IMG/VR virus record: IMGVR_UViG_2721755657_000001
Location: 1 to 34,071 of that record
Direction: 5' to 3' (one strand)
Source: a virus
Lineage: Duplodnaviria > Heunggongvirae > Uroviricota > Caudoviricetes
DNA length: 34,071 nucleotides
The notes under the pieces are model-generated. The model did not search any database, was not told the DNA's origin, and was given only the letters and a program-made list of their open reading frames with translations. Position numbers and translations under genes: made by a program. Every line of letters starts with the position of its first letter. Positions within the stretch are counted from its first letter, which is position 1. This document shows positions 1 through 32,709 of this stretch, in pieces.

Positions 1-318
1 ATGAAAAAGATAGTTGCTATATCATTAATTAGTATTTTTATTGTGTCTGGTTGTGCTGTGCATAATGATGAGACAAGTATCGGTAAATTTGGTCTTGCAT
101 ATAAAAGTAATATTCAGCGTAAACTCGATAACCAATACTACACCGAAGCCGAAGCTTCTTTAGCCAGGGGCAGAATATCTGGTGCAGAAAATATAGTAAA
201 AAATGATGCAGCCCATTTCTGTGTTACTCAGGGCAAAAAAATGCAGATAGTTGACCTGAAGACAGAAGGTGCAGGATTACATGGCGTCGCTCGTCTGACA
301 TTCAAATGTGGAGAGTGA
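1..318 (+). CDS. yegR: Small lipoprotein, host chromosomal (YegR-like), left of prophage
   Basis: 105-aa ORF with signal peptide and lipobox (IVSGC at residues 14-18). Lies outside attL. Size and position next to the cyaR/yegQ locus match my recollection of E. coli yegR; symbol is recall-based. Confidence 0.5.
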   Translation: MKKIVAISLISIFIVSGCAVHNDETSIGKFGLAYKSNIQRKLDNQYYTEAEASLARGRISGAENIVKNDAAHFCVTQGKKMQIVDLKTEGAGLHGVARLTFKCGE

Positions 319-475
319 GAATATTTTTTGGTAAGCGTCAAACATGCGCGTTCTGGTTGTGCTTAGCCGGAACCTGTGCGAGCACGATGCCGTTACGTGA
401 AAGGCATCGTGCTATGAAGGGAGATTCTATCGATGTGGTCAATGGAAGACGGTGACCAGGGATAGGGCTTATGCA

Positions 476-503
476 TAAAAAATAAGCCCGTGTAAGGGAG
501 ATT
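476..503. repeat. attL core (direct repeat shared with attR)
   Basis: taaaaaataagcccgtgtaagggagatt is identical to 32538..32565. The 27-bp part matches the P2 att core as I recall it. Integrase gene immediately to the right. Confidence 0.9.
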
Positions 504-582
504 TAGGGTGTCACCAGTAGGGGCTTTCAACGGTACAATGCGGGTTTGAGCGGCATAAATTACCACTGAAAGCCCTTAAACG

Positions 583-1596
583 TTACTCTACTGTGGACAC
601 TGTGTGGACACTCTCGGCCTCAGTACCACCTCTTAGCGGATTAAGAGAAATGGCGTCCTGAAGGTACTCTGGCGCAAAATGAGCGTAAACCATAGTTTGC
701 TCAATCCGCGTGTGACCTAGTATCCGTTGTAGCGTGATAATACTTCCTCCATTAATCATGAAATGAGTGGCAAAGCTGTGCCTTAGTGCATGTGTGGCTT
801 GCCCCATTGGCAAATCCGGTTTTATTGCTTTCATTGTTCGTCTGAAGCGAGGGTAATCAGCATCAGGGAATAAAAAACCTCGTTTGTTATCCGCGATCAT
901 TTTGGCAACAGCCTCTGAGATCGGGACGGTGCGTGGTTTGTTTGTTTTCGTTTTAACAAACGTGACGCGGTTATGGATGATATTTTCTGCTTTCAAACGA
1001 GCTGCTTCTCCCCAACGTGCTCCTGTACTCAGGCAAAGAATCGCAATCTTTTTATTGTCGCCGTCAAGTGCTGCAAGCAGTAAGGCAATTTCTTCCTGTG
1101 TGAGATAGCCTGTTTCTGGTTTTTCCTCCTTAAGCCTCTTTGTCCCTCTGATAGGGTGCTCACCAAAGAATAACTCCGCTTCAATCAGGGCTGTAAACAT
1201 GCCGCTAATACATGTTAAATCACGATTGATACTCGAAGGTTTAATACCCTGACTTCTTCGGGTGGCGCAGTACTGGCTGATAAGGGATTTCGTGATTTGA
1301 AATGCGCATGGGTCATTCGTTATTTTTGTGAAGATTTCAATTTTTCCAAGATTAGATTTCCCATGCTCTTCGTGTTTACCCTTTAAATCCCACCAGATCT
1401 GTGTCAGTTCCGACAGACGTCGTTTGTCTGTTGGTTTTGATAGCCATTCTTTATTGTGGTGGTTGTACAACGTGTATTTTTCGAAAGCGACAGCTTCGCT
1501 TTTCTTATCAAACTTCCTACGGATGCGTTTTCCGTTACGTCCAGTAGGGCGGATGTCCACTTCATATCGACCATCATCGAGTTTTTTGATTGCCAT
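583..1596 (-). CDS. int: Tyrosine integrase (P2 Int-like)
   Basis: 337-aa ORF. C-terminus carries the tyrosine-recombinase catalytic signature (HALRHSF...LGHTRIEQTMVYAH). Adjacent to attL. Confidence 0.95.
   Translation of the reverse strand: MAIKKLDDGRYEVDIRPTGRNGKRIRRKFDKKSEAVAFEKYTLYNHHNKEWLSKPTDKRRLSELTQIWWDLKGKHEEHGKSNLGKIEIFTKITNDPCAFQITKSLISQYCATRRSQGIKPSSINRDLTCISGMFTALIEAELFFGEHPIRGTKRLKEEKPETGYLTQEEIALLLAALDGDNKKIAILCLSTGARWGEAARLKAENIIHNRVTFVKTKTNKPRTVPISEAVAKMIADNKRGFLFPDADYPRFRRTMKAIKPDLPMGQATHALRHSFATHFMINGGSIITLQRILGHTRIEQTMVYAHFAPEYLQDAISLNPLRGGTEAESVHTVSTVE
592..610. promoter_or_regulatory. Tandem Int arm-type binding sites (TGTGGACA x2) in the P' arm
   Basis: TGTGGACA at 592..599 and 603..610, directly repeated next to the att core and overlapping the int 3' end. 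Matches the recalled P2 Int arm-site motif. Confidence 0.6.
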
Positions 1597-4172: not shown

Positions 4173-6447
4173 AGCCTCCGGGCGTTTTGTCCCTCCGGCA
4201 GCATTTGCCGCAGGCACCGGTAAGACGTTTACCGGTGCTTATGCATGGAACGCGCCACGCGAGGCTGTCGGGCGCGAAAGACCCCTTACACGTGACGAGA
4301 TGCGTCAGGTGCAAGGTGTTTTATCCACGATTAACCGCCTGCCTTACTTTTTGCGTTCGCTGTTTACTTCACGCTATGACTACATCCGGCGCAATAAAAG
4401 CCCGGTACACGGGTTTTATTTCCTCACATCCACTTTTCAGCGTCGTTTATGGCCGCGCATTGAGCGTGTGAATCAGCGCCATGAAATGAACACCGATGCG
4501 TCGTTGCTGTTTCTGGCAGAGCGCGACAAGTATGCGCGCCTGCCGGGAATGAATGACAGAGAGCTGAAAAAGTTTGCCGCCCGTATCTCATCGCTGCTTT
4601 TCATGATGTATGAGGAACTCTGCGATGCATGGGTTGATGCGCATGGCGAGAAAGAATCGCTGTTTACGGATGAGGCGCAGGCTCACCTCTATGGTCATGT
4701 TGCTGGTGCTGCTCGTGCTTTCAATATTTCCCCTCTCTACTGGAAAAAATACCGTAAAGGACAGATGACCACGAGGCAGGCATATTCTGCCATTGCCCGC
4801 CTGTTTAACGATGAGTGGTGGACTCATCAGCTTAAAGGCCAGCGTATGCGCTGGCATGAGGCGTTACTGATAGCTGTCGGGGAGGTTAATAAAGACCGTT
4901 CTCCTTATGCCAGTAAACATGCCATTCGTGATGTGCGTGCGCGCCGCCAGGCAAATCTGGAATTTCTTAAATCGTGTGACCTTGAAAACAGGGAAACCAG
5001 CGAGCGCATCGACCTTATCAGTAAGGTGATGGGCAGTATTTCTAATCCTGAAATTCGCCGGATGGAGCTGATGAACACCATTGCCGGTATTGAGCGTTAC
5101 GCCGCCGCAGAGGGTGATGTGGGGATGTTTATCACGCTGACCACGCCGTCAAAGTATCACCCGACACGTCAGGTCGGAAAAGGCGAAAGTAAAACCGTCC
5201 AGCTAAATCATGGCTGGAACGATGAGGCATTTAATCCAAAGGATGCGCAGCGTTATCTCTGCCGTATCTGGAGCCTGATGCGCACGGCATTCAAGGATAA
5301 TGATTTACAGGTCTACGGTTTGCGTGTCGTCGAGCCACACCACGACGGAACGCCGCACTGGCATATGATGCTTTTTTGTAATCCACGCCAGCGTAACCAG
5401 ATTATCGAAATCATGCGTCGCTATGCGCTCAAAGAGGATGGCGACGAAAGAGGAGCCGCGCGAAACCGTTTTCAGGCAAAACATCTTAACCGGGGCGGTG
5501 CTGCGGGGTATATCGCGAAATACATCTCAAAAAACATCGATGGCTATGCACTGGATGGTCAGCTCGATAACGATACCGGCAGGCCGCTGAAAGATACTGC
5601 TGCGGCTGTTACCGCATGGGCGTCAACGTGGCGCATTCCGCAATTTAAAACGGTTGGTCTGCCGACAATGGGGGCTTACCGTGAACTACGCAAATTGCCT
5701 CGCGGCGTCAGCATTGCTGATGAGTTTGACGAGCGCGTCGAGGCTGCACGCGCCGCTGCAGACAGTGGTGATTTTGCGTTGTATATCAGCGCGCAGGGCG
5801 GGGCAAATGTCCCGCGCGATTGTCAGACTGTCAGGGTCGCCCGTAGCCCGTCGGATGACGTTAACGAGTACGAGGAAGAAGTCGAGAGAGTGGTCGGCAT
5901 TTACGCGCCGCATCTCGGCGCGCGTCATATTCATATCACCAGAACGACGGACTGGCGCATTGTGCCGAAAGTGCCGGTCGTTGAGCCTTTGACGTTAAAA
6001 AGCGGCATCGCCGCGCCTCGGAGTCCTGTCAATAACTGTGGAAAGCTCTCCGGTGGTGATACTTCGTTACCGGTTCCCACACCTTCTGAACATGCCGCAG
6101 CCGTGCTTAATCTGGTTGATGACGGTGTTATCGAATGGAATGAGCCAGAGGTCGTGAGGGCGCTCAGAGGTGCATTAAAACACGGACTGAGAACACCAAA
6201 TCGTCAGCAGAGAAACAGAAGCCTGTTAAAACCACATGAAATAGCGCCATCGGCCAGACTGACCCGGTCGGAACGAACGCAAATTACCCGTATCCGCGTT
6301 GACCTTGCTCAGAACGGTATCAGGCCGCAGCGATGGGAGATTGAGGCGCTGGCGCGTGGGGCAACCGTAAATTATGACGGGAAAAAATTCACGTATCCGG
6401 TCGCTGATGAGTGGCCGGGATTCTCAACAGTAATGGAGTGGACATGA
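4162..6447 (+). CDS. A: Replication initiation protein A (rolling-circle nickase)
   Basis: 761-aa product from the ATG at 4162 (MAVKASGRFVPP...), within ORF 4120..6447. Sequence recalled as P2 gpA. Confidence 0.9.
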   Translation: MAVKASGRFVPPAAFAAGTGKTFTGAYAWNAPREAVGRERPLTRDEMRQVQGVLSTINRLPYFLRSLFTSRYDYIRRNKSPVHGFYFLTSTFQRRLWPRIERVNQRHEMNTDASLLFLAERDKYARLPGMNDRELKKFAARISSLLFMMYEELCDAWVDAHGEKESLFTDEAQAHLYGHVAGAARAFNISPLYWKKYRKGQMTTRQAYSAIARLFNDEWWTHQLKGQRMRWHEALLIAVGEVNKDRSPYASKHAIRDVRARRQANLEFLKSCDLENRETSERIDLISKVMGSISNPEIRRMELMNTIAGIERYAAAEGDVGMFITLTTPSKYHPTRQVGKGESKTVQLNHGWNDEAFNPKDAQRYLCRIWSLMRTAFKDNDLQVYGLRVVEPHHDGTPHWHMMLFCNPRQRNQIIEIMRRYALKEDGDERGAARNRFQAKHLNRGGAAGYIAKYISKNIDGYALDGQLDNDTGRPLKDTAAAVTAWASTWRIPQFKTVGLPTMGAYRELRKLPRGVSIADEFDERVEAARAAADSGDFALYISAQGGANVPRDCQTVRVARSPSDDVNEYEEEVERVVGIYAPHLGARHIHITRTTDWRIVPKVPVVEPLTLKSGIAAPRSPVNNCGKLSGGDTSLPVPTPSEHAAAVLNLVDDGVIEWNEPEVVRALRGALKHGLRTPNRQQRNRSLLKPHEIAPSARLTRSERTQITRIRVDLAQNGIRPQRWEIEALARGATVNYDGKKFTYPVADEWPGFSTVMEWT

Positions 6448-6899
6448 TGGCAAAAATTCACGAGGTAAAGCTGCACGCAAAATATTTCGACCTTGTGCTG
6501 GAAGGAAAGAAACGCGCAGAGTTTCGGAAAAATGACCGTAATTATGAGCGCGGGGACACGTTGATTTTGCATGAATGGGTGCAGGGTGTGTATACGGGGC
6601 GAAAGGTTGAAGCCCGGATAACAGATGTTACTGACCTGTCAGACTGGCTGGAAGATTATGTCTTGCTAAGTATTGAGCGGCTTAATACAGGCGCATATGA
6701 GATTGTGAACTGGAAAGAACTTAGTGAGCGTGGTCTGGTATTCAGAATTAATCATGAAATTATGCATCAGCTCGGCCTTGCTGTTATGTATGAATCAGAG
6801 ACGGGGATGTCTGGCGGGGCAATGGTAGCCACGGATGGAGCATGGAACTATTCAGATGAACAGATGGAGCGTGCAAAGCAAAACGGGTGGCTTGGATAA
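6444..6899 (+). CDS. ASCH/PUA-like (DUF3850-like) domain protein, translationally coupled to A
   Basis: ATG at 6444 overlaps the A stop (ATGA). The N-terminal ~80 aa (KIHEVKLHAKYFDLVLEGKKRAEFRKNDRNYERGDTLILHE) resemble the ASCH GxKxxExR-type fold. Domain call is from motif reading only. Confidence 0.5.
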   Translation: MMAKIHEVKLHAKYFDLVLEGKKRAEFRKNDRNYERGDTLILHEWVQGVYTGRKVEARITDVTDLSDWLEDYVLLSIERLNTGAYEIVNWKELSERGLVFRINHEIMHQLGLAVMYESETGMSGGAMVATDGAWNYSDEQMERAKQNGWLG

Positions 6900-7105: not shown

Positions 7106-7328
7106 AGAACGCCGCCAGTTGTGAAACTTGTTTTCAGGGCTGGCGGGGTTGAACAACGAGCGAAGCGAGACGTTAGTTGACAGACATATTTTTACTACGT
7201 TGGTGCTGGTTTTTGACGGTTGAAAGGAGTTAGGTTGGAGAGCTAACAACTTACAAATATTCAAAAGTAAGCATCCTGTTGCTAACATGAGGTTGATTTT
7301 TTATGTGGATGATGCAAAAAGGATAGCT

Positions 7329-8060
7329 ATGGATACTATAATCGCTTTTCTATCACTCGCTTTTTTCGTTGCTTTCTTCATCGGGCTAATCAAGCCATCA
7401 CTGGTGCGAATGCCAAACCGCAAACGTGCAAGTGCGGTTTATCTCGGAGGAGGTTTTGTATTGAGCATAATTGGTTCAATACTCTATCCAACAGAAAAAA
7501 GCCAGCCAGTTGCTAAAACTGAAACATCAACCGTTGCAGAACACAAAGTCCAAAAAACATTCGAATATGGTGAAAAAACACTCAAGGAATATCGGAACGA
7601 GTCAAAGAAAACACGACACGATATTGTGAATAGTTACATTGATTTTAAGGAAGTTCCAGCCACCGCGTCAGATGCGTTTTATGCCTGCATGAGTGAGTAT
7701 ACATTTACCAAAGATGATGAGTTGAAACTCGGTGATGTTCTTGGGTGGTGCTTTAATGATTATGAAAATGACCCGAGTTCACTAAACAATAAAATCAATC
7801 TTGATACATTTCAGAGTAATTTTAGTGGTTGGGATGGTTCTTATCGTCCATTGGAAAAACTAATTAAAGATAATATGAACGATGATTCATCTTATAAACA
7901 TGTGTCAACGGTATATCATCTGGTTTTGAATAAAGACCCGCATGCCATTGTGAAAACCACGTTTCGCGGAACTAATGCTTATGGCGGAGTAGTGAAACAG
8001 ACGATTGCTGCGCGTGTCAATGTAGAAACAGGTGAGGTTGTATCAATTATAAGTGAGTGA
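7329..8060 (+). CDS. Cargo gene 1 in the A-cos (tin/old) slot: membrane-anchored protein of unknown function
   Basis: ATG at 7329 with AAGGA SD 5 nt upstream (alternative ATG at 7287 has no SD). Two N-terminal hydrophobic segments (IIAFLSLAFFVAFFIGLI, VYLGGGFVLSIIGSILY) followed by a ~190-aa soluble domain. Visibly AT-rich relative to flanking phage genes. Confidence 0.65.
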   Translation: MDTIIAFLSLAFFVAFFIGLIKPSLVRMPNRKRASAVYLGGGFVLSIIGSILYPTEKSQPVAKTETSTVAEHKVQKTFEYGEKTLKEYRNESKKTRHDIVNSYIDFKEVPATASDAFYACMSEYTFTKDDELKLGDVLGWCFNDYENDPSSLNNKINLDTFQSNFSGWDGSYRPLEKLIKDNMNDDSSYKHVSTVYHLVLNKDPHAIVKTTFRGTNAYGGVVKQTIAARVNVETGEVVSIISE

Positions 8061-8158
8061 ACTGTGCCAGAATGATAAAGATGCCAGCATTTATGCTGGC
8101 AATCATAAAAATAGTGACTAGCAAAAATTGGTGTCTGGTTTTAATGTGAGATTAGAAA

Positions 8159-8857
8159 ATGAAGAGATGTAAATATATTTTAAGAGGTTTGTTGCTGAAG
8201 TTTAAAAGTATAAGTTCTATGCATTTGTTATTTGTTTTAATAACGGCTTGTCTATTCTTTTTTATAGGGTGTTACGTGGGTTATAGTGGTATTGGTTTGA
8301 ATGGTGACACTAAATACCAATTAATTACAATACCTTTTTTGACCATGTTGGGTACTTGGGTTTCTGGGGTGGGAGCATTTTCTGCTGTTGCGACATCATT
8401 GTTGTTGGCACACCGTTCGCTAAAGGAAAATTCAGAAGAAATTGCTATTCGATATAGCATGGTGTTAATACCATCAATGTACTTACCTAGCACTACAGAT
8501 ACAGCAATATCAATAACCATAACAAACAAAAGAAAAGTAAGGAGTAATATTCAATCGGTTGTTTTGCAATTTTCTAATAATAAAGCAATGAATATATGGG
8601 TAAACCCCGGGACGCTTATCTCTGGCAAGTTACCGCATGTTTTAGAAGACTATGGTGATATATTGACGCTTATAATTCCAGAGAGCATTACCGCATCAGT
8701 AACTGATGAGGGGTTCGTAAAAGAATGTCAGGGGAATACTCTTGGAGAAGGTAGCGTCGTAGTTCACACAACGACAAAAACATTTGTAAAAAAATTAACA
8801 TTACCTCAAATTAAGCCATTTAATGATAAATTTAAGTCTGTATTGACGAAGCCGTAA
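8159..8857 (+). CDS. Cargo gene 2 in the A-cos slot: membrane/lipoprotein-like protein of unknown function
   Basis: 232-aa ORF. Basic N-terminus, then hydrophobic stretches (LLFVLITACLFFFIGC, possible lipobox FIGC; second stretch AFSAVATSLLLA), then a ~140-aa soluble C-terminal region. AT-rich. 98 bp downstream of cargo gene 1 on the same strand. Confidence 0.6.
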   Translation: MKRCKYILRGLLLKFKSISSMHLLFVLITACLFFFIGCYVGYSGIGLNGDTKYQLITIPFLTMLGTWVSGVGAFSAVATSLLLAHRSLKENSEEIAIRYSMVLIPSMYLPSTTDTAISITITNKRKVRSNIQSVVLQFSNNKAMNIWVNPGTLISGKLPHVLEDYGDILTLIIPESITASVTDEGFVKECQGNTLGEGSVVVHTTTKTFVKKLTLPQIKPFNDKFKSVLTKP

Positions 8858-8981
8858 GAGGTGCGTTGCGTTGCATTTTTTTGCATCTTCAAGGATTAAT
8901 TTCTGCATCTTTATTTTGCCAGTACTGATGTGCTTTTAATGGACTCATGCAACTGCATTAAAATCGACCCATGAAGCGGGC

Positions 8982-9000
8982 GGGCGAGGCGGGGAAAGCA
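8982..9000. other. cos site (19-nt cohesive-end sequence)
   Basis: GGCGAGGCGGGGAAAGCAC matches the P2 19-nt cohesive end as I recall it. Lies between the accessory slot and Q, as in P2. Confidence 0.8.
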
Positions 9001-9141
9001 CTGCGCGCTGGCGGTGGTGCTGATTTTATTTTCCAGCGTCTCAGCGCGTCGTGAAGGCGCTTAGTCTGCCCGTTGGGGGTTGGTGTGTCTGCGGGGTGTT
9101 TTGTGCGGTGGTGAGCGAGTGAGGGCGTGATGACGGGGTAT

Positions 9142-18420: not shown

Positions 18421-19206
18421 TTATGAGTGATTTTTATTTGATGCTTTGTATTCTACAACCTTCTTATTGGCGTAAAGGAATTTTGTATATGACAGGAATA
18501 TAACCAGACCTGAAATGAAATAGATGAGGGATATTATTAATAATGCTTTTTTTTGGCTGTTATTATCTTTAATCTCCTGACTTAACCATTCGGAGTCCTC
18601 CTCGTTTAGCTGTAAGAGCTTATTGCAGGCGATCTCAGGAAGTGTGTCTTTTATAAATACGTTTCGTAGCCTCTTGCAATCGGCAAGGCTATAAGTTTTA
18701 TTGAATTCAACTGTTTTATTGTTGAAGGATAAAAGAACTTTGTCACTATAAACATAGTACATCATATTTTTATATGGTATGCCTATGGCATCTCTTACTA
18801 TAGCGGATTGTTTGTTGTGTATATAACATGCGAAGAGAATATAAATAACACTGGACAGAATTACAATTATTGTTTTAATTATGTGTGGTGGTTTTGTTAT
18901 GTCACCCCAGAAGCGAGTAAGAAAAAAATACGATGTTTTTAGTTTTCCATCAATCAGCCCCTGCTGTATCATTCTCACATCTTCGATGCCTGATACATTG
19001 ATTCCGTTAATTATTTTAAATAGTTGAATGTCGCGCCATTTTTTGTCGAGCATTTTTAACTTTCTGTCTGAATACTCAAAATTGAAATGATGTGCAATAA
19101 ACCTCATAAGATTACTTTTACCAAAGGTAATAAATGTTAATGCTATTAATAAAAATAGATACAAAGAGATAAACCACCACGCATTAGTCACATTATCACT
19201 GAACAT
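18421..19206 (-). CDS. Cargo gene in the S-V slot: membrane protein with three hydrophobic segments, unknown function
   Basis: 261-aa ORF on the strand opposite to the late operons, with GAGGAG SD 6-7 nt upstream of its ATG. Hydrophobic segments near residues 9-28, 110-128 and 222-240. Strongly AT-rich. Confidence 0.7.
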   Translation of the reverse strand: MFSDNVTNAWWFISLYLFLLIALTFITFGKSNLMRFIAHHFNFEYSDRKLKMLDKKWRDIQLFKIINGINVSGIEDVRMIQQGLIDGKLKTSYFFLTRFWGDITKPPHIIKTIIVILSSVIYILFACYIHNKQSAIVRDAIGIPYKNMMYYVYSDKVLLSFNNKTVEFNKTYSLADCKRLRNVFIKDTLPEIACNKLLQLNEEDSEWLSQEIKDNNSQKKALLIISLIYFISGLVIFLSYTKFLYANKKVVEYKASNKNHS

Positions 19207-19289
19207 TACGCTCTCCTCGAATGTTGTATGGTCGTTCTACAAATGAATCCAGATAGCATAACTTTTATATATTGTGCAATCTCACACGC

Positions 19290-19925
19290 ATGAACACTCT
19301 CGCAAATATTCAGGAACTCGCGCGCGCACTGCGCAACATGATTCGTACCGGCCTTGTCGTCGAAACCAACCTTAAAGCCGGTCGCTGCCGTGTGCAGACC
19401 GGTGGCATGTGCACTGACTGGCTTCAGTGGCTGACCCATCGTGCCGGACGTTCGCGCACATGGTGGGCACCTTCCGTGGGGGAACAGGTGCTGATTCTGG
19501 CTGTGGGCGGTGAACTCGACACGGCGTTCGTTCTGCCGGGGATTTATTCCGGCGATAACCCCGCGCCGTCTGCGTCGGCGGATGCCCTGCATATCCGTTT
19601 CCCTGACGGGGCGGTGATTGAGTATGAACCCGAAACCAGTGCACTCACGGTAAGCGGAATTAAAACGGTCAGCGTGACGGCTTCTGATTCTGTTACTGCC
19701 ACGGTGCCGGTGGTCATGGTGAAAGCATCAACCCGTGTCACCCTGGACACACCGGAGGTGGTCTGCACTAACAGACTGATTACCGGCACGCTGGAAGTGC
19801 AGAAGGGCGGGACGATGCGCGGCAACATTGAACACACCGGCGGTGAACTCTCATCAAACGGTAAGGTACTGCATACCCACAAACACCCAGGAGACAGCGG
19901 CGGCACAACCGGGAGTCCTCTATGA
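19290..19925 (+). CDS. V: Baseplate spike/assembly protein V
   Basis: 211-aa product from the ATG at 19290 (MNTLANIQELARALRNM...), within ORF 19272..19925. Confidence 0.9.
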   Translation: MNTLANIQELARALRNMIRTGLVVETNLKAGRCRVQTGGMCTDWLQWLTHRAGRSRTWWAPSVGEQVLILAVGGELDTAFVLPGIYSGDNPAPSASADALHIRFPDGAVIEYEPETSALTVSGIKTVSVTASDSVTATVPVVMVKASTRVTLDTPEVVCTNRLITGTLEVQKGGTMRGNIEHTGGELSSNGKVLHTHKHPGDSGGTTGSPL

Positions 19926-24037: not shown

Positions 24038-24565
24038 ATGCAGCATTTGATAAATATAACGGCAGGTAATCCAAAAACGGTTGAACAATATCAATTGACA
24101 AAAGACTTTGATGTTGTCTGGTTTTTTTCAGAAGATGGTAAGAACTGGTACGAAGAACAAAAGTATTTTGCTGATGACACGCTAAAAATAGCGTACGACA
24201 AAGATAATATCATCCGCTATGTGGAAAAGGATGTGACAGCTATCAGACCGGATGGATTAAGTGTGGTTGAAGTGGCGGATATTACTGCTAACCGACGGGC
24301 GGACATTTCAGGGGGCTGGATGTTTAAGGGCGGCAAAGTGATTAAACGCATTTATACGGCAGAGGAATTGCAGCAGCAGGCAGAAAACCGGAAAGCCAGA
24401 CTTCTTGCAGATGCTGAATCCGTGATTTTGCCGCTGGAGCGCGCTGTCAGGCTGAATATGGCTACAGAGGAGGAGCGCACACGACTGGAAGCATGGGAAC
24501 GCTACAGCGTTCTGGTCAGTCGTGTGGATCCTGCAAATCCTGAATGGCCGGAAATGCCGCAATAA
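24038..24565 (+). CDS. G: Tail fibre assembly chaperone G
   Basis: 175-aa ORF immediately downstream of H. P2 gpG position. Confidence 0.88.
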
Positions 24566-30493: not shown

Positions 30494-30973
30494 ATGATGC
30501 TCGCGTTAGGTATGTTTGTTTTTATGCGCCAGACGCTGCCACACCAGACCATGCAGCGTGAATCAGATTATCGCTGGCCGTCAAATTCCCGTATCGGTAA
30601 ACGGGACGCCTACCAGTTTCTCGGTGTTGGCGATGAAAACATCACGCTTGCCGGTGTGCTTTATCCTGAACTGACCGGCGGAAAGCTGACGATGACCACG
30701 CTCAGGCTGATGGCAGAGGAAGGCCGGGCGTGGCCGTTGCTGGATGGCACCGGCATGATTTACGGCATGTATGTCATCAGCAAGGTGAGTGAAACAGGGA
30801 GTATTTTCTTTGCAGACGGCACACCCCGAAAAATTGATTTTACGCTGTCGCTCACCCGTGTTGATGAATCACTGGCCGCGCTTTATGGCGATATCGGTAA
30901 ACAGGCGGAATCGCTCATCGGTAAGGCTGGCAGTATGGCGACCAGATTCACGGGTATGACGGGGGTGGGATAA
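30494..30973 (+). CDS. U: Tail protein U
   Basis: 159-aa ORF after T with GAGGTGA SD. Confidence 0.88.
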   Translation: MMLALGMFVFMRQTLPHQTMQRESDYRWPSNSRIGKRDAYQFLGVGDENITLAGVLYPELTGGKLTMTTLRLMAEEGRAWPLLDGTGMIYGMYVISKVSETGSIFFADGTPRKIDFTLSLTRVDESLAALYGDIGKQAESLIGKAGSMATRFTGMTGVG

Positions 30974-32217: not shown

Positions 32218-32436
32218 ATGTTTCATTGTCCTTTATGCCAGCATGCCGCACATGCGCGTACAAGTCGCTATATCACTGACACGACAAAAGAGCGTTATCA
32301 CCAGTGTCAGAACGTGAATTGCAGCGCCACGTTCATCACTTATGAGTCGGTACAGCGATACATCGTGAAGCCGGGAGAAGTCCACGCCGTAAGGCCGCAC
32401 CCGTTGCCGTCAGGGCAGCAAATTATGTGGATGTAA
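32218..32436 (+). CDS. ogr: Ogr, zinc-finger late transcription activator
   Basis: 72-aa product from the internal ATG at 32218 (MFHCPLCQHAAHARTSRYITDTTKERYHQCQNVNCSATFITYESVQRYIV...), with Cys4 motif CxxC...CxxxxC. Last phage gene before attR. Confidence 0.9.
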   Translation: MFHCPLCQHAAHARTSRYITDTTKERYHQCQNVNCSATFITYESVQRYIVKPGEVHAVRPHPLPSGQQIMWM

Positions 32437-32448
32437 TTAGAAACAGGA

Positions 32449-32474
32449 AGCCCCTCAGTCGAGGGGCTTTTTTT
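32449..32474 (+). terminator. Intrinsic terminator after ogr
   Basis: AGCCCCTC-agtc-GAGGGGCT followed by a T-run, 13 nt after the ogr stop. Confidence 0.85.
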
Positions 32475-32537
32475 GTCGATGTGGTCAATGTGTGGACGTG
32501 ACCAGAAATAAATCCTTTTATTTCAATTTGTTGTTCG

Positions 32538-32565
32538 TAAAAAATAAGCCCGTGTAAGGGAGATT
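32538..32565. repeat. attR core (direct repeat of attL), overlapping the 3' end/terminator of cyaR
   Basis: Identical 28 bp to 476..503. Forms the 3' terminus of the cyaR transcript on the minus strand. Confidence 0.9.
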
Positions 32566-32625
32566 ACACAGGCTAAGGAGGTGGTTCCTGGTACAGCTAG
32601 CATTTTATGGGTTATGTTTTTCAGC
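32539..32625 (-). ncRNA. cyaR: CyaR (RyeE) Hfq-dependent sRNA
   Basis: Minus-strand sequence GCUGAAAAACAUAACCCAUAAAAUGCUAGCUGUACCAGGAACCACCUCCUUAGCCUGUGUAAUCUCCCUUACACGGGCUUAUUUUUU (87 nt) matches CyaR as I recall it. Located between yegQ and the prophage; its 3' end is supplied by the att core. Confidence 0.85.
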
Positions 32626-32709
32626 GAAACGGATGATAACCTTAATAAATGCAGCTGTATGTGATCGGTTTCTAAGAATTTTCCATCCGGGAAAAATAAT
32701 CGAAATTAA

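What the first reader, a model, noticed from the sequence alone, without database searches (positions are those of the whole stretch)
430..459. Degenerate copy of the P-arm block to the left of attL, where only bacterial sequence is expected
About 45 bp left of the attL core there is a 30-bp block (tcgatgtggtcaatg-gaagacg-gtgaccag) that matches at 24 of 30 positions the block left of attR (32476..32505, tcgatgtggtcaatg-tgtggacg-gtgaccag). The attR copy lies in the phage P arm and contains TGTGG-type repeats resembling Int arm sites. A P-arm-like sequence on the bacterial side of attL suggests a vestige of an earlier P2-like occupant at this site, or an unusual attB.
Basis: seen in the sequence. 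Interest (0 to 1): 0.45.

Follow-up and report, generated by a model that had tools for sequence, protein, structure and literature searches.

The report
Fossil P2 prophage arm beside attB
The 30-bp block is real and is the decayed integrase-binding arm of an ancient P2-like prophage, a roughly 0.8-kb fossil that also holds yegR, is present in almost every E. coli, and is the spot where new P2 phages still integrate, so it is an ordinary prophage relic.

Summary
Observation confirmed. Window 430-459 matches 32476-32505 at 24/30, with a 15-mer and a 7-mer exact, far beyond chance. The attR copy is exactly the site annotated 'Int, P arm' in phage P2.

The vestige reading is right, but the vestige is ancient and species-wide, not a recent occupant of this strain:
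- The block lies in the yegR-cyaR interval of 5375/5426 complete E. coli genomes.
- 4203 of these have an empty site.
- Lineages with a longer flank (Escherichia sp. MOD1-EC7003, E. coli 7/2) keep a recognisable full P arm, with the block plus the IHF spacer.
- E. ruysiae and Kluyvera have yegS directly next to the core, with no yegR and no block.
- At that synteny break E. coli carries a decayed attL: core 18-21/27, P' about 25/40.
- The DNA just after yegR (323-371) is homologous to the cos-proximal right end of 186/P2-type genomes.

Best model: a fossil running attL*, yegR at the cos-side cargo hotspot, a right-end fragment, a degenerate P arm, then a live core kept as the cyaR terminator. 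The resident prophage integrated into the fossil's attR core. K-12's ogrK/yegZ remnant equals this window minus 495-31921.

The block is probably non-functional. Interest is modest.

The parts
1..318 (+). yegR, a 105-aa orphan lipoprotein-like gene. Inferred cargo gene of the fossil prophage.
   Evidence: Annotated yegR in E. coli records. It lies between the decayed attL and the cos-proximal fragment, which is the gpA-gpQ/cos cargo hotspot position of P2-like phages (PMC9122126; PMC13586616). GC is 38% against 50-54% for yegS and yegQ. It is absent at this locus in E. ruysiae and Kluyvera. Homologs are almost only in E. coli. A phage origin is inferred from position only; no homolog was found inside an intact phage.
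323..383 (+). Fragment homologous to the right, cos-proximal end of 186/P2-type phage genomes.
   Evidence: 323-371 matches phage 186 30517-30565 at 38/49, 59-107 nt from the right cos end. Score 43 against shuffles 15.4 +/- 2.2, 0/2000. It is collinear with 186, with the window's own right end and with the longer L021 version that runs through a decayed cos. A phage-database search with the L021 piece hit only 25 P2/186-type records, at the right genome terminus wherever the record ends there.
381..413 (.). Perfect hairpin with an 11-bp stem and 11-nt loop, of unknown origin, between the cos-proximal fragment and the block.
   Evidence: Free energy -21.1/-19.3 kcal/mol, z -3.8/-4.6. No T-run and no terminator call. 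No Rfam match. Single copy per genome. It is possibly the decayed terminator that preceded the old P arm; that is not shown.
417..426 (+). AAGGGAGATT, an exact copy of the last 10 nt of the att core, lying 3 nt left of the block. Unexplained.
   Evidence: Read in the sequence. Variants in K-12 and MOD1-EC7003. The sequence to its left does not resemble the rest of the core.
430..459 (+). The finding: the degenerate P-arm Int arm-site block of the fossil. The first TGTGG repeat is intact and the second is lost.
460..476 (+). Shortened relic of the P-arm spacer. The IHF-site part is deleted. It creates the inverted repeat 465-472/482-489.
   Evidence: P2 has 33 nt here carrying the annotated IHF site. 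MOD1-EC7003 keeps 33 nt, of which I count 23 identical to the E. ruysiae prophage spacer in the alignments. E. coli 7/2 and 88 other lysogens keep about 30 nt. Most E. coli have 17 nt.
477..503 (+). attL core of the resident prophage. Before integration it was the attR core of the fossil and the 3' end of cyaR.
   Evidence: 27/27 identical to 32539-32565 and to the P2 attP core.
504..612 (+). P' arm of the resident prophage, with the Cox region and two TGTGGACA Int arm repeats at 592-599 and 603-610.
   Evidence: Near-identical to the P2 region annotated as Cox and Int P' arm sites.
583..1596 (-). int, the P2-type tyrosine integrase of the resident prophage.
   Evidence: Pfam Int_N 1.3e-24 and Phage_integrase 8.7e-22.
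8982..9000 (+). cos of the resident prophage (GGCGAGGCGGGGAAAGCAC). Reference point for the fossil's cos-proximal fragment.
   Evidence: and alignment A1. That this 19-mer is the P2 cohesive end is from my memory.
32218..32436 (+). ogr of the resident prophage.
   Evidence: Matches ogr of P2 and ogrK of K-12.
32449..32475 (+). ogr rho-independent terminator, directly before the P arm.
   Evidence: Annotated as a terminator in P2; sequence.
32476..32505 (+). Functional-type P-arm Int arm-binding block, with two direct TGTGG repeats.
   Evidence: P2 protein_bind 'Int, P arm'. The design is conserved in Wphi and Klebsiella P2-like phages that have other cores.
32506..32538 (+). P-arm spacer carrying the IHF site.
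   Evidence: P2 protein_bind IHF 24324-24357.
32539..32565 (+). attR core.
32542..32627 (-). cyaR sRNA. Its terminator loop, 3' stem half and U-tract are the att core.
   Evidence: Rfam RF00112, 100.7 bits, E 3.4e-21.

Best explanation
The block is the decayed P arm (Int arm-type binding site) of an ancient P2-like prophage that integrated at the 3' end of cyaR and was reduced by internal deletions to a fossil of about 0.8 kb.

In prophage order, the fossil consists of:
- a decayed attL (core plus the start of the P' arm) next to yegS, just outside the window;
- yegR, at the cos-side cargo hotspot;
- about 60 bp of the cos-proximal right end of the phage genome (323-383);
- a hairpin of unknown origin (381-413);
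- the degenerate P arm (430-476);
- an intact core (477-503 here).

The core has stayed perfect because it is the terminator of cyaR. The standard E. coli P2 attachment site is therefore the attR of this fossil.

The resident prophage in the window recombined its attP with that core. This is why a P-arm-like sequence now lies on the 'bacterial' side of attL.

The relic has one intact repeat out of two and, in most E. coli, has lost the IHF part of the spacer. It is most likely inert.

Shown: the homologies, their collinearity, their distribution, and the ancestral yegS-core arrangement.

Inferred: that all pieces come from one element rather than several rounds of lysogeny and deletion, that yegR was phage cargo, and that the block no longer binds Int.
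For: 1. The block is homologous to the P arm beyond chance, and the attR copy is the annotated P2 Int P-arm site.

2. The homology covers the whole arm where the flank is longer. MOD1-EC7003 has block, 33-nt spacer and core at an empty site. E. coli 7/2 and 88 other lysogens align with P2 attP from the first base of the block through the core at about 90%.

3. The flank is species-wide: 5375/5426 genomes carry it and 4203 have empty sites.

4. The ancestral arrangement lacks it. In E. ruysiae (attL, L019) and three Kluyvera genomes (L010, L014, L015) the yegS start lies about 105 bp from the core, with no yegR and no block.

5. At exactly that break E. coli continues with a decayed core and P' arm.
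- Core matches are 18/27 in E. coli, 21/27 in MOD1-EC7003 and 18/27 in L021, with binomial P of 9e-5 and 4e-7 at a fixed register. By my own position-by-position count, not a tool output, 23/27 positions match P2 in at least one of E. coli and L021.
- The P' arm matches at 23-25/40 in E. coli and MOD1-EC7003 and only 13/40 in L021.

6. 323-371 matches the right end of phage 186 with a z-score of about 12.5. L021 keeps the homolog through a decayed cos (E 1.4e-14 to 186; E 1e-7 to the window's own 8918-9002). Only P2/186-type phages hit this piece. All pieces are in prophage order and orientation.

7. The direction is phage to host. The same arm design (terminator, two TGTGG repeats, ATAAATCC spacer) occurs in P2-like phages with different cores and integration sites. 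The host copy is the degenerate one.

8. The fossil interior is AT-rich, at 37-38% GC against 50-54% in the neighbouring genes.

9. Decay at this site is visibly ongoing. K-12's ogrK/yegZ remnant equals this window minus 495-31921. E308 has another deletion. In MOD1-EC7003, yegR is broken.
Against: - No recognisable phage protein gene survives in the fossil (tblastn of all prophage ORFs).
- YegR has no homolog inside any intact phage that I could find.
- 48 bp (381-429) have no identified phage counterpart.
- Decay is uneven. 22 of the 22 outer block positions equal P2, whereas the fossil attL core is only 67-78% identical. This fits a composite origin or some constraint better than a single neutral relic, although by my rough run-length estimate this is not significant (P about 0.14).
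- Distribution within Escherichia is patchy. The fossil is present in the most divergent genome sampled (L021, yegQ 92%) but absent from E. ruysiae (94%). So either E. ruysiae lost it or the segment moved by recombination.
- E. albertii, E. fergusonii and E. marmotae were not examined.
Confidence: 0.85

Rival explanations
1. Recent vestige. The block is left over from a P2-like prophage that occupied the site shortly before the present one, in this strain or clone only.
For: K-12 shows that such recent remnants do arise at this locus.
Against: The same flank at 94-100% identity is in 5375/5426 E. coli genomes, and 4203 of these have an uninterrupted block-core-cyaR junction. It is also in a separate Escherichia species.
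Confidence: 0.02
2. Host to phage. The block is ordinary E. coli sequence downstream of cyaR, and an ancestor of P2 picked it up together with the core (for example by imprecise excision) and turned it into its P arm.
For: Phage attP sites do carry host-derived sequence, since the core is the cyaR 3' end. The first 15 nt are identical in host and phage.
Against: - P2-like phages that integrate elsewhere, with unrelated cores, have the same arm design.
- The TGTGG motif is also repeated in the P' arm.
- The host copy has lost a repeat.
- E. ruysiae and Kluyvera lack the block at the homologous place.
- The block is accompanied by two other phage-derived pieces in prophage order.
Confidence: 0.04
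3. Functional arm site in attB. The retained repeat (ATGTGGTCA, identical to the first P-arm repeat of P2) is still bound by the N-terminal domain of Int and is kept by selection, on host or phage, because it helps capture, orientation or excision at this preferred site.
For: The first 21 nt of the block are invariant among E. coli, K-12 and MOD1-EC7003, while neighbouring flank positions differ by about 15-20% by my count. The outer 22 positions equal P2 exactly.
Against: - A P2-like prophage integrated at the same core in E. ruysiae without any block.
- The second repeat is destroyed.
- The distance to the core varies between lineages (17, about 30 and 33 nt), and the IHF part is deleted in most.
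- By my rough run-length estimate, an invariant stretch of this length is not unusual (P about 0.3).
- No binding data exist.
Confidence: 0.07
4. Chance resemblance.
For: None beyond the short length.
Against: A 15-mer plus a 7-mer in register, next to the same core. 0/2000 shuffles reach the score. The homology extends in other lineages.
Confidence: 0.01

Closest known systems
P2 remnant of E. coli K-12 at the primary P2 site (yegZ = D', ogrK, attR). Described by Barreiro and Haggard-Ljungquist, J Bacteriol 1992 (PMC206120), which is cited from memory because the paper is not held.
   Same: Same locus and same kind of object: a P2-like prophage reduced by deletion that keeps an attR whose core is the cyaR terminator. 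It lies immediately to the right of the block in K-12.
   Different: The K-12 remnant is young (97% identical to this window's prophage), still has ogr and part of D, and is restricted to some strains. It equals this window minus 495-31921. The fossil described here is older, lies to its left, has no phage gene left, is nearly universal in E. coli, and has a decayed attL of its own.
P arm of P2 attP, consisting of the Int arm-type sites and the IHF site. See the P2 RefSeq annotation and the consensus tgTGGaCa in PMC3448106.
   Same: Sequence homology of 24/30 for the block, or over the full arm in the long variants. It has the same position and orientation relative to the core.
   Different: Only one of the two repeats survives. 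The IHF spacer is truncated in most E. coli. There is no ogr or terminator upstream. It sits on the chromosome side of attL.
cos-adjacent cargo or defence hotspot of P2-like phages, between gpA and gpQ, which holds old and tin in P2 (Rousset et al. 2022, PMC9122126; PMC13586616).
   Same: yegR lies directly upstream of the homolog of the cos-proximal right end, in the orientation of the hotspot genes of the resident prophage (7287-8857, + strand).
   Different: gpA and gpQ no longer flank it. YegR has no known defence function and no homolog in PADLOC-type systems or in intact phages that I could find.
Tandem or serial prophage relics at tRNA, tmRNA and sRNA integration sites, in which the 3' gene end is regenerated by the element. 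This is general knowledge. A parallel sRNA case is the sdsR locus, described as a recurrent attachment site in PMC3333887.
   Same: A small-RNA 3' end serves as the core. Each integration regenerates it. Older elements are pushed away from the gene and decay.
   Different: Here the older element has shrunk to sub-kilobase size and has been annotated as plain chromosome (yegR plus intergenic DNA).

Membership tests
P2-type attP P arm (functional Int arm site) | Two direct repeats fitting tgTGGaCa | tested here: not met
   The left copy has ATGTGGTCA followed by GGAAGACG, so only the first repeat fits. The attR copy has both.
P2-type attP P arm (functional Int arm site) | IHF site in a spacer of about 33 nt between the arm site and the core | tested here: not met
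   The window has a 17-nt spacer that lacks the ATAAATCC...TTTCA part. Decayed long forms exist in MOD1-EC7003 and E. coli 7/2.
P2-type attP P arm (functional Int arm site) | Sequence homology and the same orientation and side relative to the core | tested here: met
   24/30 for the block, with 0/2000 shuffles reaching the score. Arm-long alignment in the long variants.
P2-type attP P arm (functional Int arm site) | Binding by the N-terminal domain of Int | not testable with these tools
   Needs EMSA or footprinting.
Prophage remnant (cryptic prophage fossil) | Bounded by att-derived direct repeats | tested here: met
   A decayed core (18-21/27) with the start of P' lies next to yegS, and an intact core lies at cyaR.
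Prophage remnant (cryptic prophage fossil) | Internal segments homologous to phage DNA, in prophage order | tested here: met
   P' start, cos-proximal right end and P arm are all collinear.
Prophage remnant (cryptic prophage fossil) | Absent from the same locus in related genomes (insertion polarity) | tested here: met
   E. ruysiae and Kluyvera have yegS, about 105 bp, then the core. E. albertii, E. fergusonii and E. marmotae were not sampled.
Prophage remnant (cryptic prophage fossil) | Recognisable phage genes or pseudogenes | tested here: not met
   tblastn of all ORFs of the resident prophage against the fossil gave no significant hit. YegR has no phage homolog.
Primary P2 attB (core at the cyaR 3' end) | 27-bp core identical to attP and overlapping the cyaR terminator | tested here: met
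   Core is 27/27. cyaR scores 100.7 bits at 32542-32627. The empty site is seen in E2855. That this is the site called locI in E. coli C is from memory and was not checked here.

The most novel reading that the evidence does not exclude
The surviving half arm-site (ATGTGGTCA, identical to P2's first P-arm repeat and invariant in every E. coli flank examined) is still bound by P2 Int. If so, the preferred chromosomal site would not be a simple core-only attB but an attB with an arm-type contact inherited from a fossil attR. That contact would influence site preference, synapsis or the directionality of excision.
Probability: 0.07. Interest if true: 0.65.

Novelty: new member of a known kind. 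Interest (0 to 1): 0.33.

Why it matters
- It re-reads a stretch annotated as plain chromosome (yegR and the yegR-cyaR spacer) as the last 0.8 kb of a P2-like prophage.
- It gives a concrete origin for the orphan gene yegR.
- It shows that the standard E. coli P2 integration site is itself the attR of an older relative, with at least two further rounds of lysogeny and decay visible in different strains.
- It warns that prophage-boundary calls at this locus, and 'bacterial' attB arms used in recombination assays, contain phage-derived Int-site sequence.
- It does not reveal a new mechanism.

Tried and rejected
- I looked for a P2-like phage whose P arm equals the left copy. None was found: the phage hits to 320-475 are two records that include host flank, plus phage 186 for 323-371.
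- I scanned IMG/VR for the hairpin. All 91 hits are host flanks of prophage contigs, typically about 410 nt from a contig end.
- I tested whether yegR is phage cargo through homologs. The 51% homolog in Enterobacter sits in an IS-rich region. The 43% homolog sits next to a UDG gene. No viral contig encodes one. The supplements of Rousset et al. do not mention it.
- I searched for int or other pseudogenes in the fossil and found none.
- Rfam finds nothing in 300-700, and there is no terminator there.
- I considered that AAGGGAGATT (417-426) marks a second, older core. The sequence to its left does not match the core, so I rejected this as unsupported.
- I considered that the hairpin plus AAGGGAGATT is the decayed ogr terminator. 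By my count of the alignment, only about 12/29 positions match, which is not significant.
- I considered that a shortened spacer is required for the site to be reusable. This is weakened by the 89 lysogens with a long-spacer flank.
- No genome has an attP-like junction of terminator, P arm, core and P'. So no tandem integration next to an intact P arm was seen, but the sample cannot show that this is impossible.
- The 1992 paper on P2 attachment sites could not be read, so I cannot exclude that the flank homology was noted there.

Full report
**Layout of the window.** From left to right the window holds:
- yegR at 1-318 (+);
- a 158-bp flank;
- the 27-bp P2 att core at 477-503;
- a complete P2-like prophage, with int at 583-1596 on the minus strand, cos at 8982-9000 and ogr at 32218-36;
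- the ogr terminator;
- the P arm;
- a second copy of the core at 32539-32565;
- cyaR at 32542-32627 on the minus strand (Rfam, 100.7 bits);
- yegQ.

The core is the loop, the 3' stem half and the U-tract of the cyaR terminator.

**The observation.** Window 430-459 and 32476-32505 agree at 24 of 30 positions, with the first 15 and the last 7 identical. A local alignment of the whole left flank against the whole P arm scores 38. Shuffles give 14.8 +/- 2.2 with a maximum of 25, and 0 of 2000 reach 38. The attR copy is exactly what the P2 RefSeq record annotates as the Int binding site of the P arm. It is followed there by the IHF site and the core. Its two TGTGG repeats fit the published P2-type arm consensus tgTGGaCa (PMC3448106). 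The left copy keeps the first repeat and has lost the second.

**The flank is not strain-specific.**
- Window 300-520 is found in 5417 of 5426 complete E. coli genomes, and in 5375 of them over at least 80% of its length.
- A junction query from an empty site (block, core, cyaR) is uninterrupted in 4203 genomes. Strain E2855 is an example.
- K-12 has the same flank to the left of its D'-ogrK remnant.

So the block is the normal left flank of the E. coli attachment site.

**The homology is arm-long where the flank is longer.**
- In Escherichia sp. MOD1-EC7003 (yegQ 95% identical to the window) an empty site reads block, a 33-nt spacer, then core. By my count of the alignments, 23 of those 33 positions equal the spacer of the E. 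ruysiae prophage.
- In 89 E. coli lysogens, for example strain 7/2, the flank aligns with P2 attP from the first base of the block through a spacer of about 30 nt into the core, at about 90%.
- Most E. coli have a 17-nt spacer that lacks the IHF part.

**The ancestral arrangement lacks the whole segment.** A scan of one genome per species for the core found 22 loci. In E. ruysiae (attL of a P2-like prophage, L019) and in three Kluyvera genomes the start of yegS lies about 105 bp from the core, with no yegR and no block. E. coli is collinear with E. ruysiae up to GAAAGTCG. It then continues with a sequence that aligns with the P2 core and the start of the P' arm. The matches are:

| Lineage | Core | First 40 nt of P' |
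|---|---|---|
| E. coli | 18/27 | 23-25/40 |
| MOD1-EC7003 | 21/27 | 25/40 |
| L021 (divergent genome) | 18/27 | 13/40 |

The binomial P at a fixed register is 9e-5 for 18/27 and 4e-7 for 21/27. The local score is 26 against 15.2 +/- 2.2. This is a decayed attL.

**A phage right end follows yegR.**
- Window 323-371 matches phage 186 at 30517-30565, which is 59-107 nt from its right cohesive end. The match is 38/49, with a score of 43 against 15.4 +/- 2.2.
- L021 keeps more. Its homolog runs to a decayed cos and aligns with 186 (E 1.4e-14) and with the window's own 8918-9002 (E 1e-7). It then joins the distal P arm.
- A phage-database search with that piece returned only 25 P2/186-type records, at the right terminus wherever the record ends there.
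- Alignment A1 shows the collinearity.

yegR therefore occupies the cos-side cargo hotspot between gpA and gpQ (PMC9122126; PMC13586616). It has the orientation of the resident prophage's own hotspot genes. The fossil interior has 37-38% GC, against 50-54% for yegS and yegQ.

**Direction of transfer.** P2-like phages with other cores (Wphi, L-413C, fiAA91-ss and Klebsiella phages) share the design of terminator, two TGTGG repeats and ATAAATCC spacer. They diverge only near the core. The arm is therefore ancestral in the phages, and the host copy is the degenerate derivative.

**Model.**
1. A P2-like phage integrated at cyaR.
2. Deletions removed int through A, and cos through ogr.
3. The left core decayed, while the right core was preserved as the cyaR terminator.
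4. Later P2-like phages used that core, which gives the arrangement in this window.

A single deletion of 495-31921 from such a lysogen gives the K-12 remnant. Other strains show further deletions. The pieces could also stem from more than one round. The uneven decay of the block and the different architecture in L021 point that way.

**Function.** Nothing indicates that the block still works. One repeat is gone. The spacing to the core varies among lineages. In addition, integration in E. ruysiae occurred without the block. A residual Int contact cannot be excluded without binding experiments.

**What is known.** The K-12 remnant at this site is long known (Barreiro and Haggard-Ljungquist 1992, from memory; the paper is not held). 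I found no description of the older, species-wide fossil or of a phage origin of yegR in the searchable library. I file it as a new member of a known kind, namely a prophage relic at a small-RNA integration site.

**Limits.**
- No phage gene survives in the fossil.
- The cargo origin of yegR rests on position only.
- 381-429 is unexplained.
- Only some Escherichia species were sampled.
- Several of the species-representative assemblies retrieved look error-rich and were not relied on.

Noticed in passing
window 417-426: AAGGGAGATT repeats the last 10 nt of the att core, 3 nt to the left of the block. It is conserved with small changes in K-12 and MOD1-EC7003. No model accounts for it.
   Followed up: partly
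window 381-413: Strong perfect hairpin (11-bp stem, -21 kcal/mol, z about -4). It has no T-run, is single copy per genome and has no Rfam hit. It sits at the junction between the cos-proximal fragment and the P-arm relic.
   Followed up: partly
window 465-472 and 482-489: The E. coli-specific short spacer creates an inverted repeat, GGGCTTAT / ATAAGCCC, that spans the cyaR U-tract. On the cyaR strand this is a second hairpin that overlaps the terminator's 3' half. Its z-score is only about -1.6.
   Followed up: partly
window 495-31921 compared with L001 (K-12) 2692: The K-12 yegZ-ogrK remnant is this window's arrangement with one deletion of about 31.4 kb, running from inside the attL core to inside gene D. 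The remaining DNA is 97% identical.
   Followed up: yes
window 7287-8060 and 8159-8857 (+): Two ORFs of 257 aa and 232 aa lie in the gpA-cos cargo hotspot of the resident prophage. Neither has a Pfam or PADLOC match. They are candidates for an undescribed anti-phage system.
   Followed up: partly
window 18421-19206 and 19206-19592 (-): Two opposite-strand ORFs of 261 aa and 128 aa are inserted among the late genes. They have no significant Pfam or PADLOC match and look like a second cargo site.
   Followed up: partly
window 6411-6899 (+): An ASCH/DUF3850 plus DUF7415 protein is encoded just after the replication gene.
   Followed up: no
L005 2333-2500; L027 370-485: An AT-rich segment of about 170 bp lies between the yegR stop and the cos-proximal fragment in E. 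coli AR_0058 and MOD1-EC7003. It is missing from most E. coli, including the window. In MOD1-EC7003, yegR itself is reduced to an inverted 5' fragment (L027 302-368).
   Followed up: partly
L005 2666 and L021 core, compared with window 488: The core is polymorphic: GCCCG in most genomes and in P2, GCCTG in AR_0058 and L021. The T variant turns a G.U pair of the cyaR terminator stem into A-U, and it would be a core mismatch for P2.
   Followed up: no
L006, L008, L009, L013, L016-L018, L020, L025 (left of the core): In Kluyvera, and in two records labelled Enterobacter hormaechei whose yegQ is 98% E. coli-like, other sequences abut the same core. These include antitoxin-like genes and unrelated islands. 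The cyaR 3' end appears to be a general integration hotspot.
   Followed up: no
L007, L011, L012, L023, L024: Several species-representative genomes from two deposit series (CP1783xx, CP1825xx) show many small indels. One of them (L007) combines a K-12-like yegR flank with a Kluyvera-like yegQ. They are probably error-rich or chimeric assemblies.
   Followed up: no
E. coli genome search: None of 5426 genomes has an attP-like junction of ogr terminator, P arm, core and P'. So no tandem lysogen, and no prophage next to an intact K-12-type attR, was seen.
   Followed up: partly
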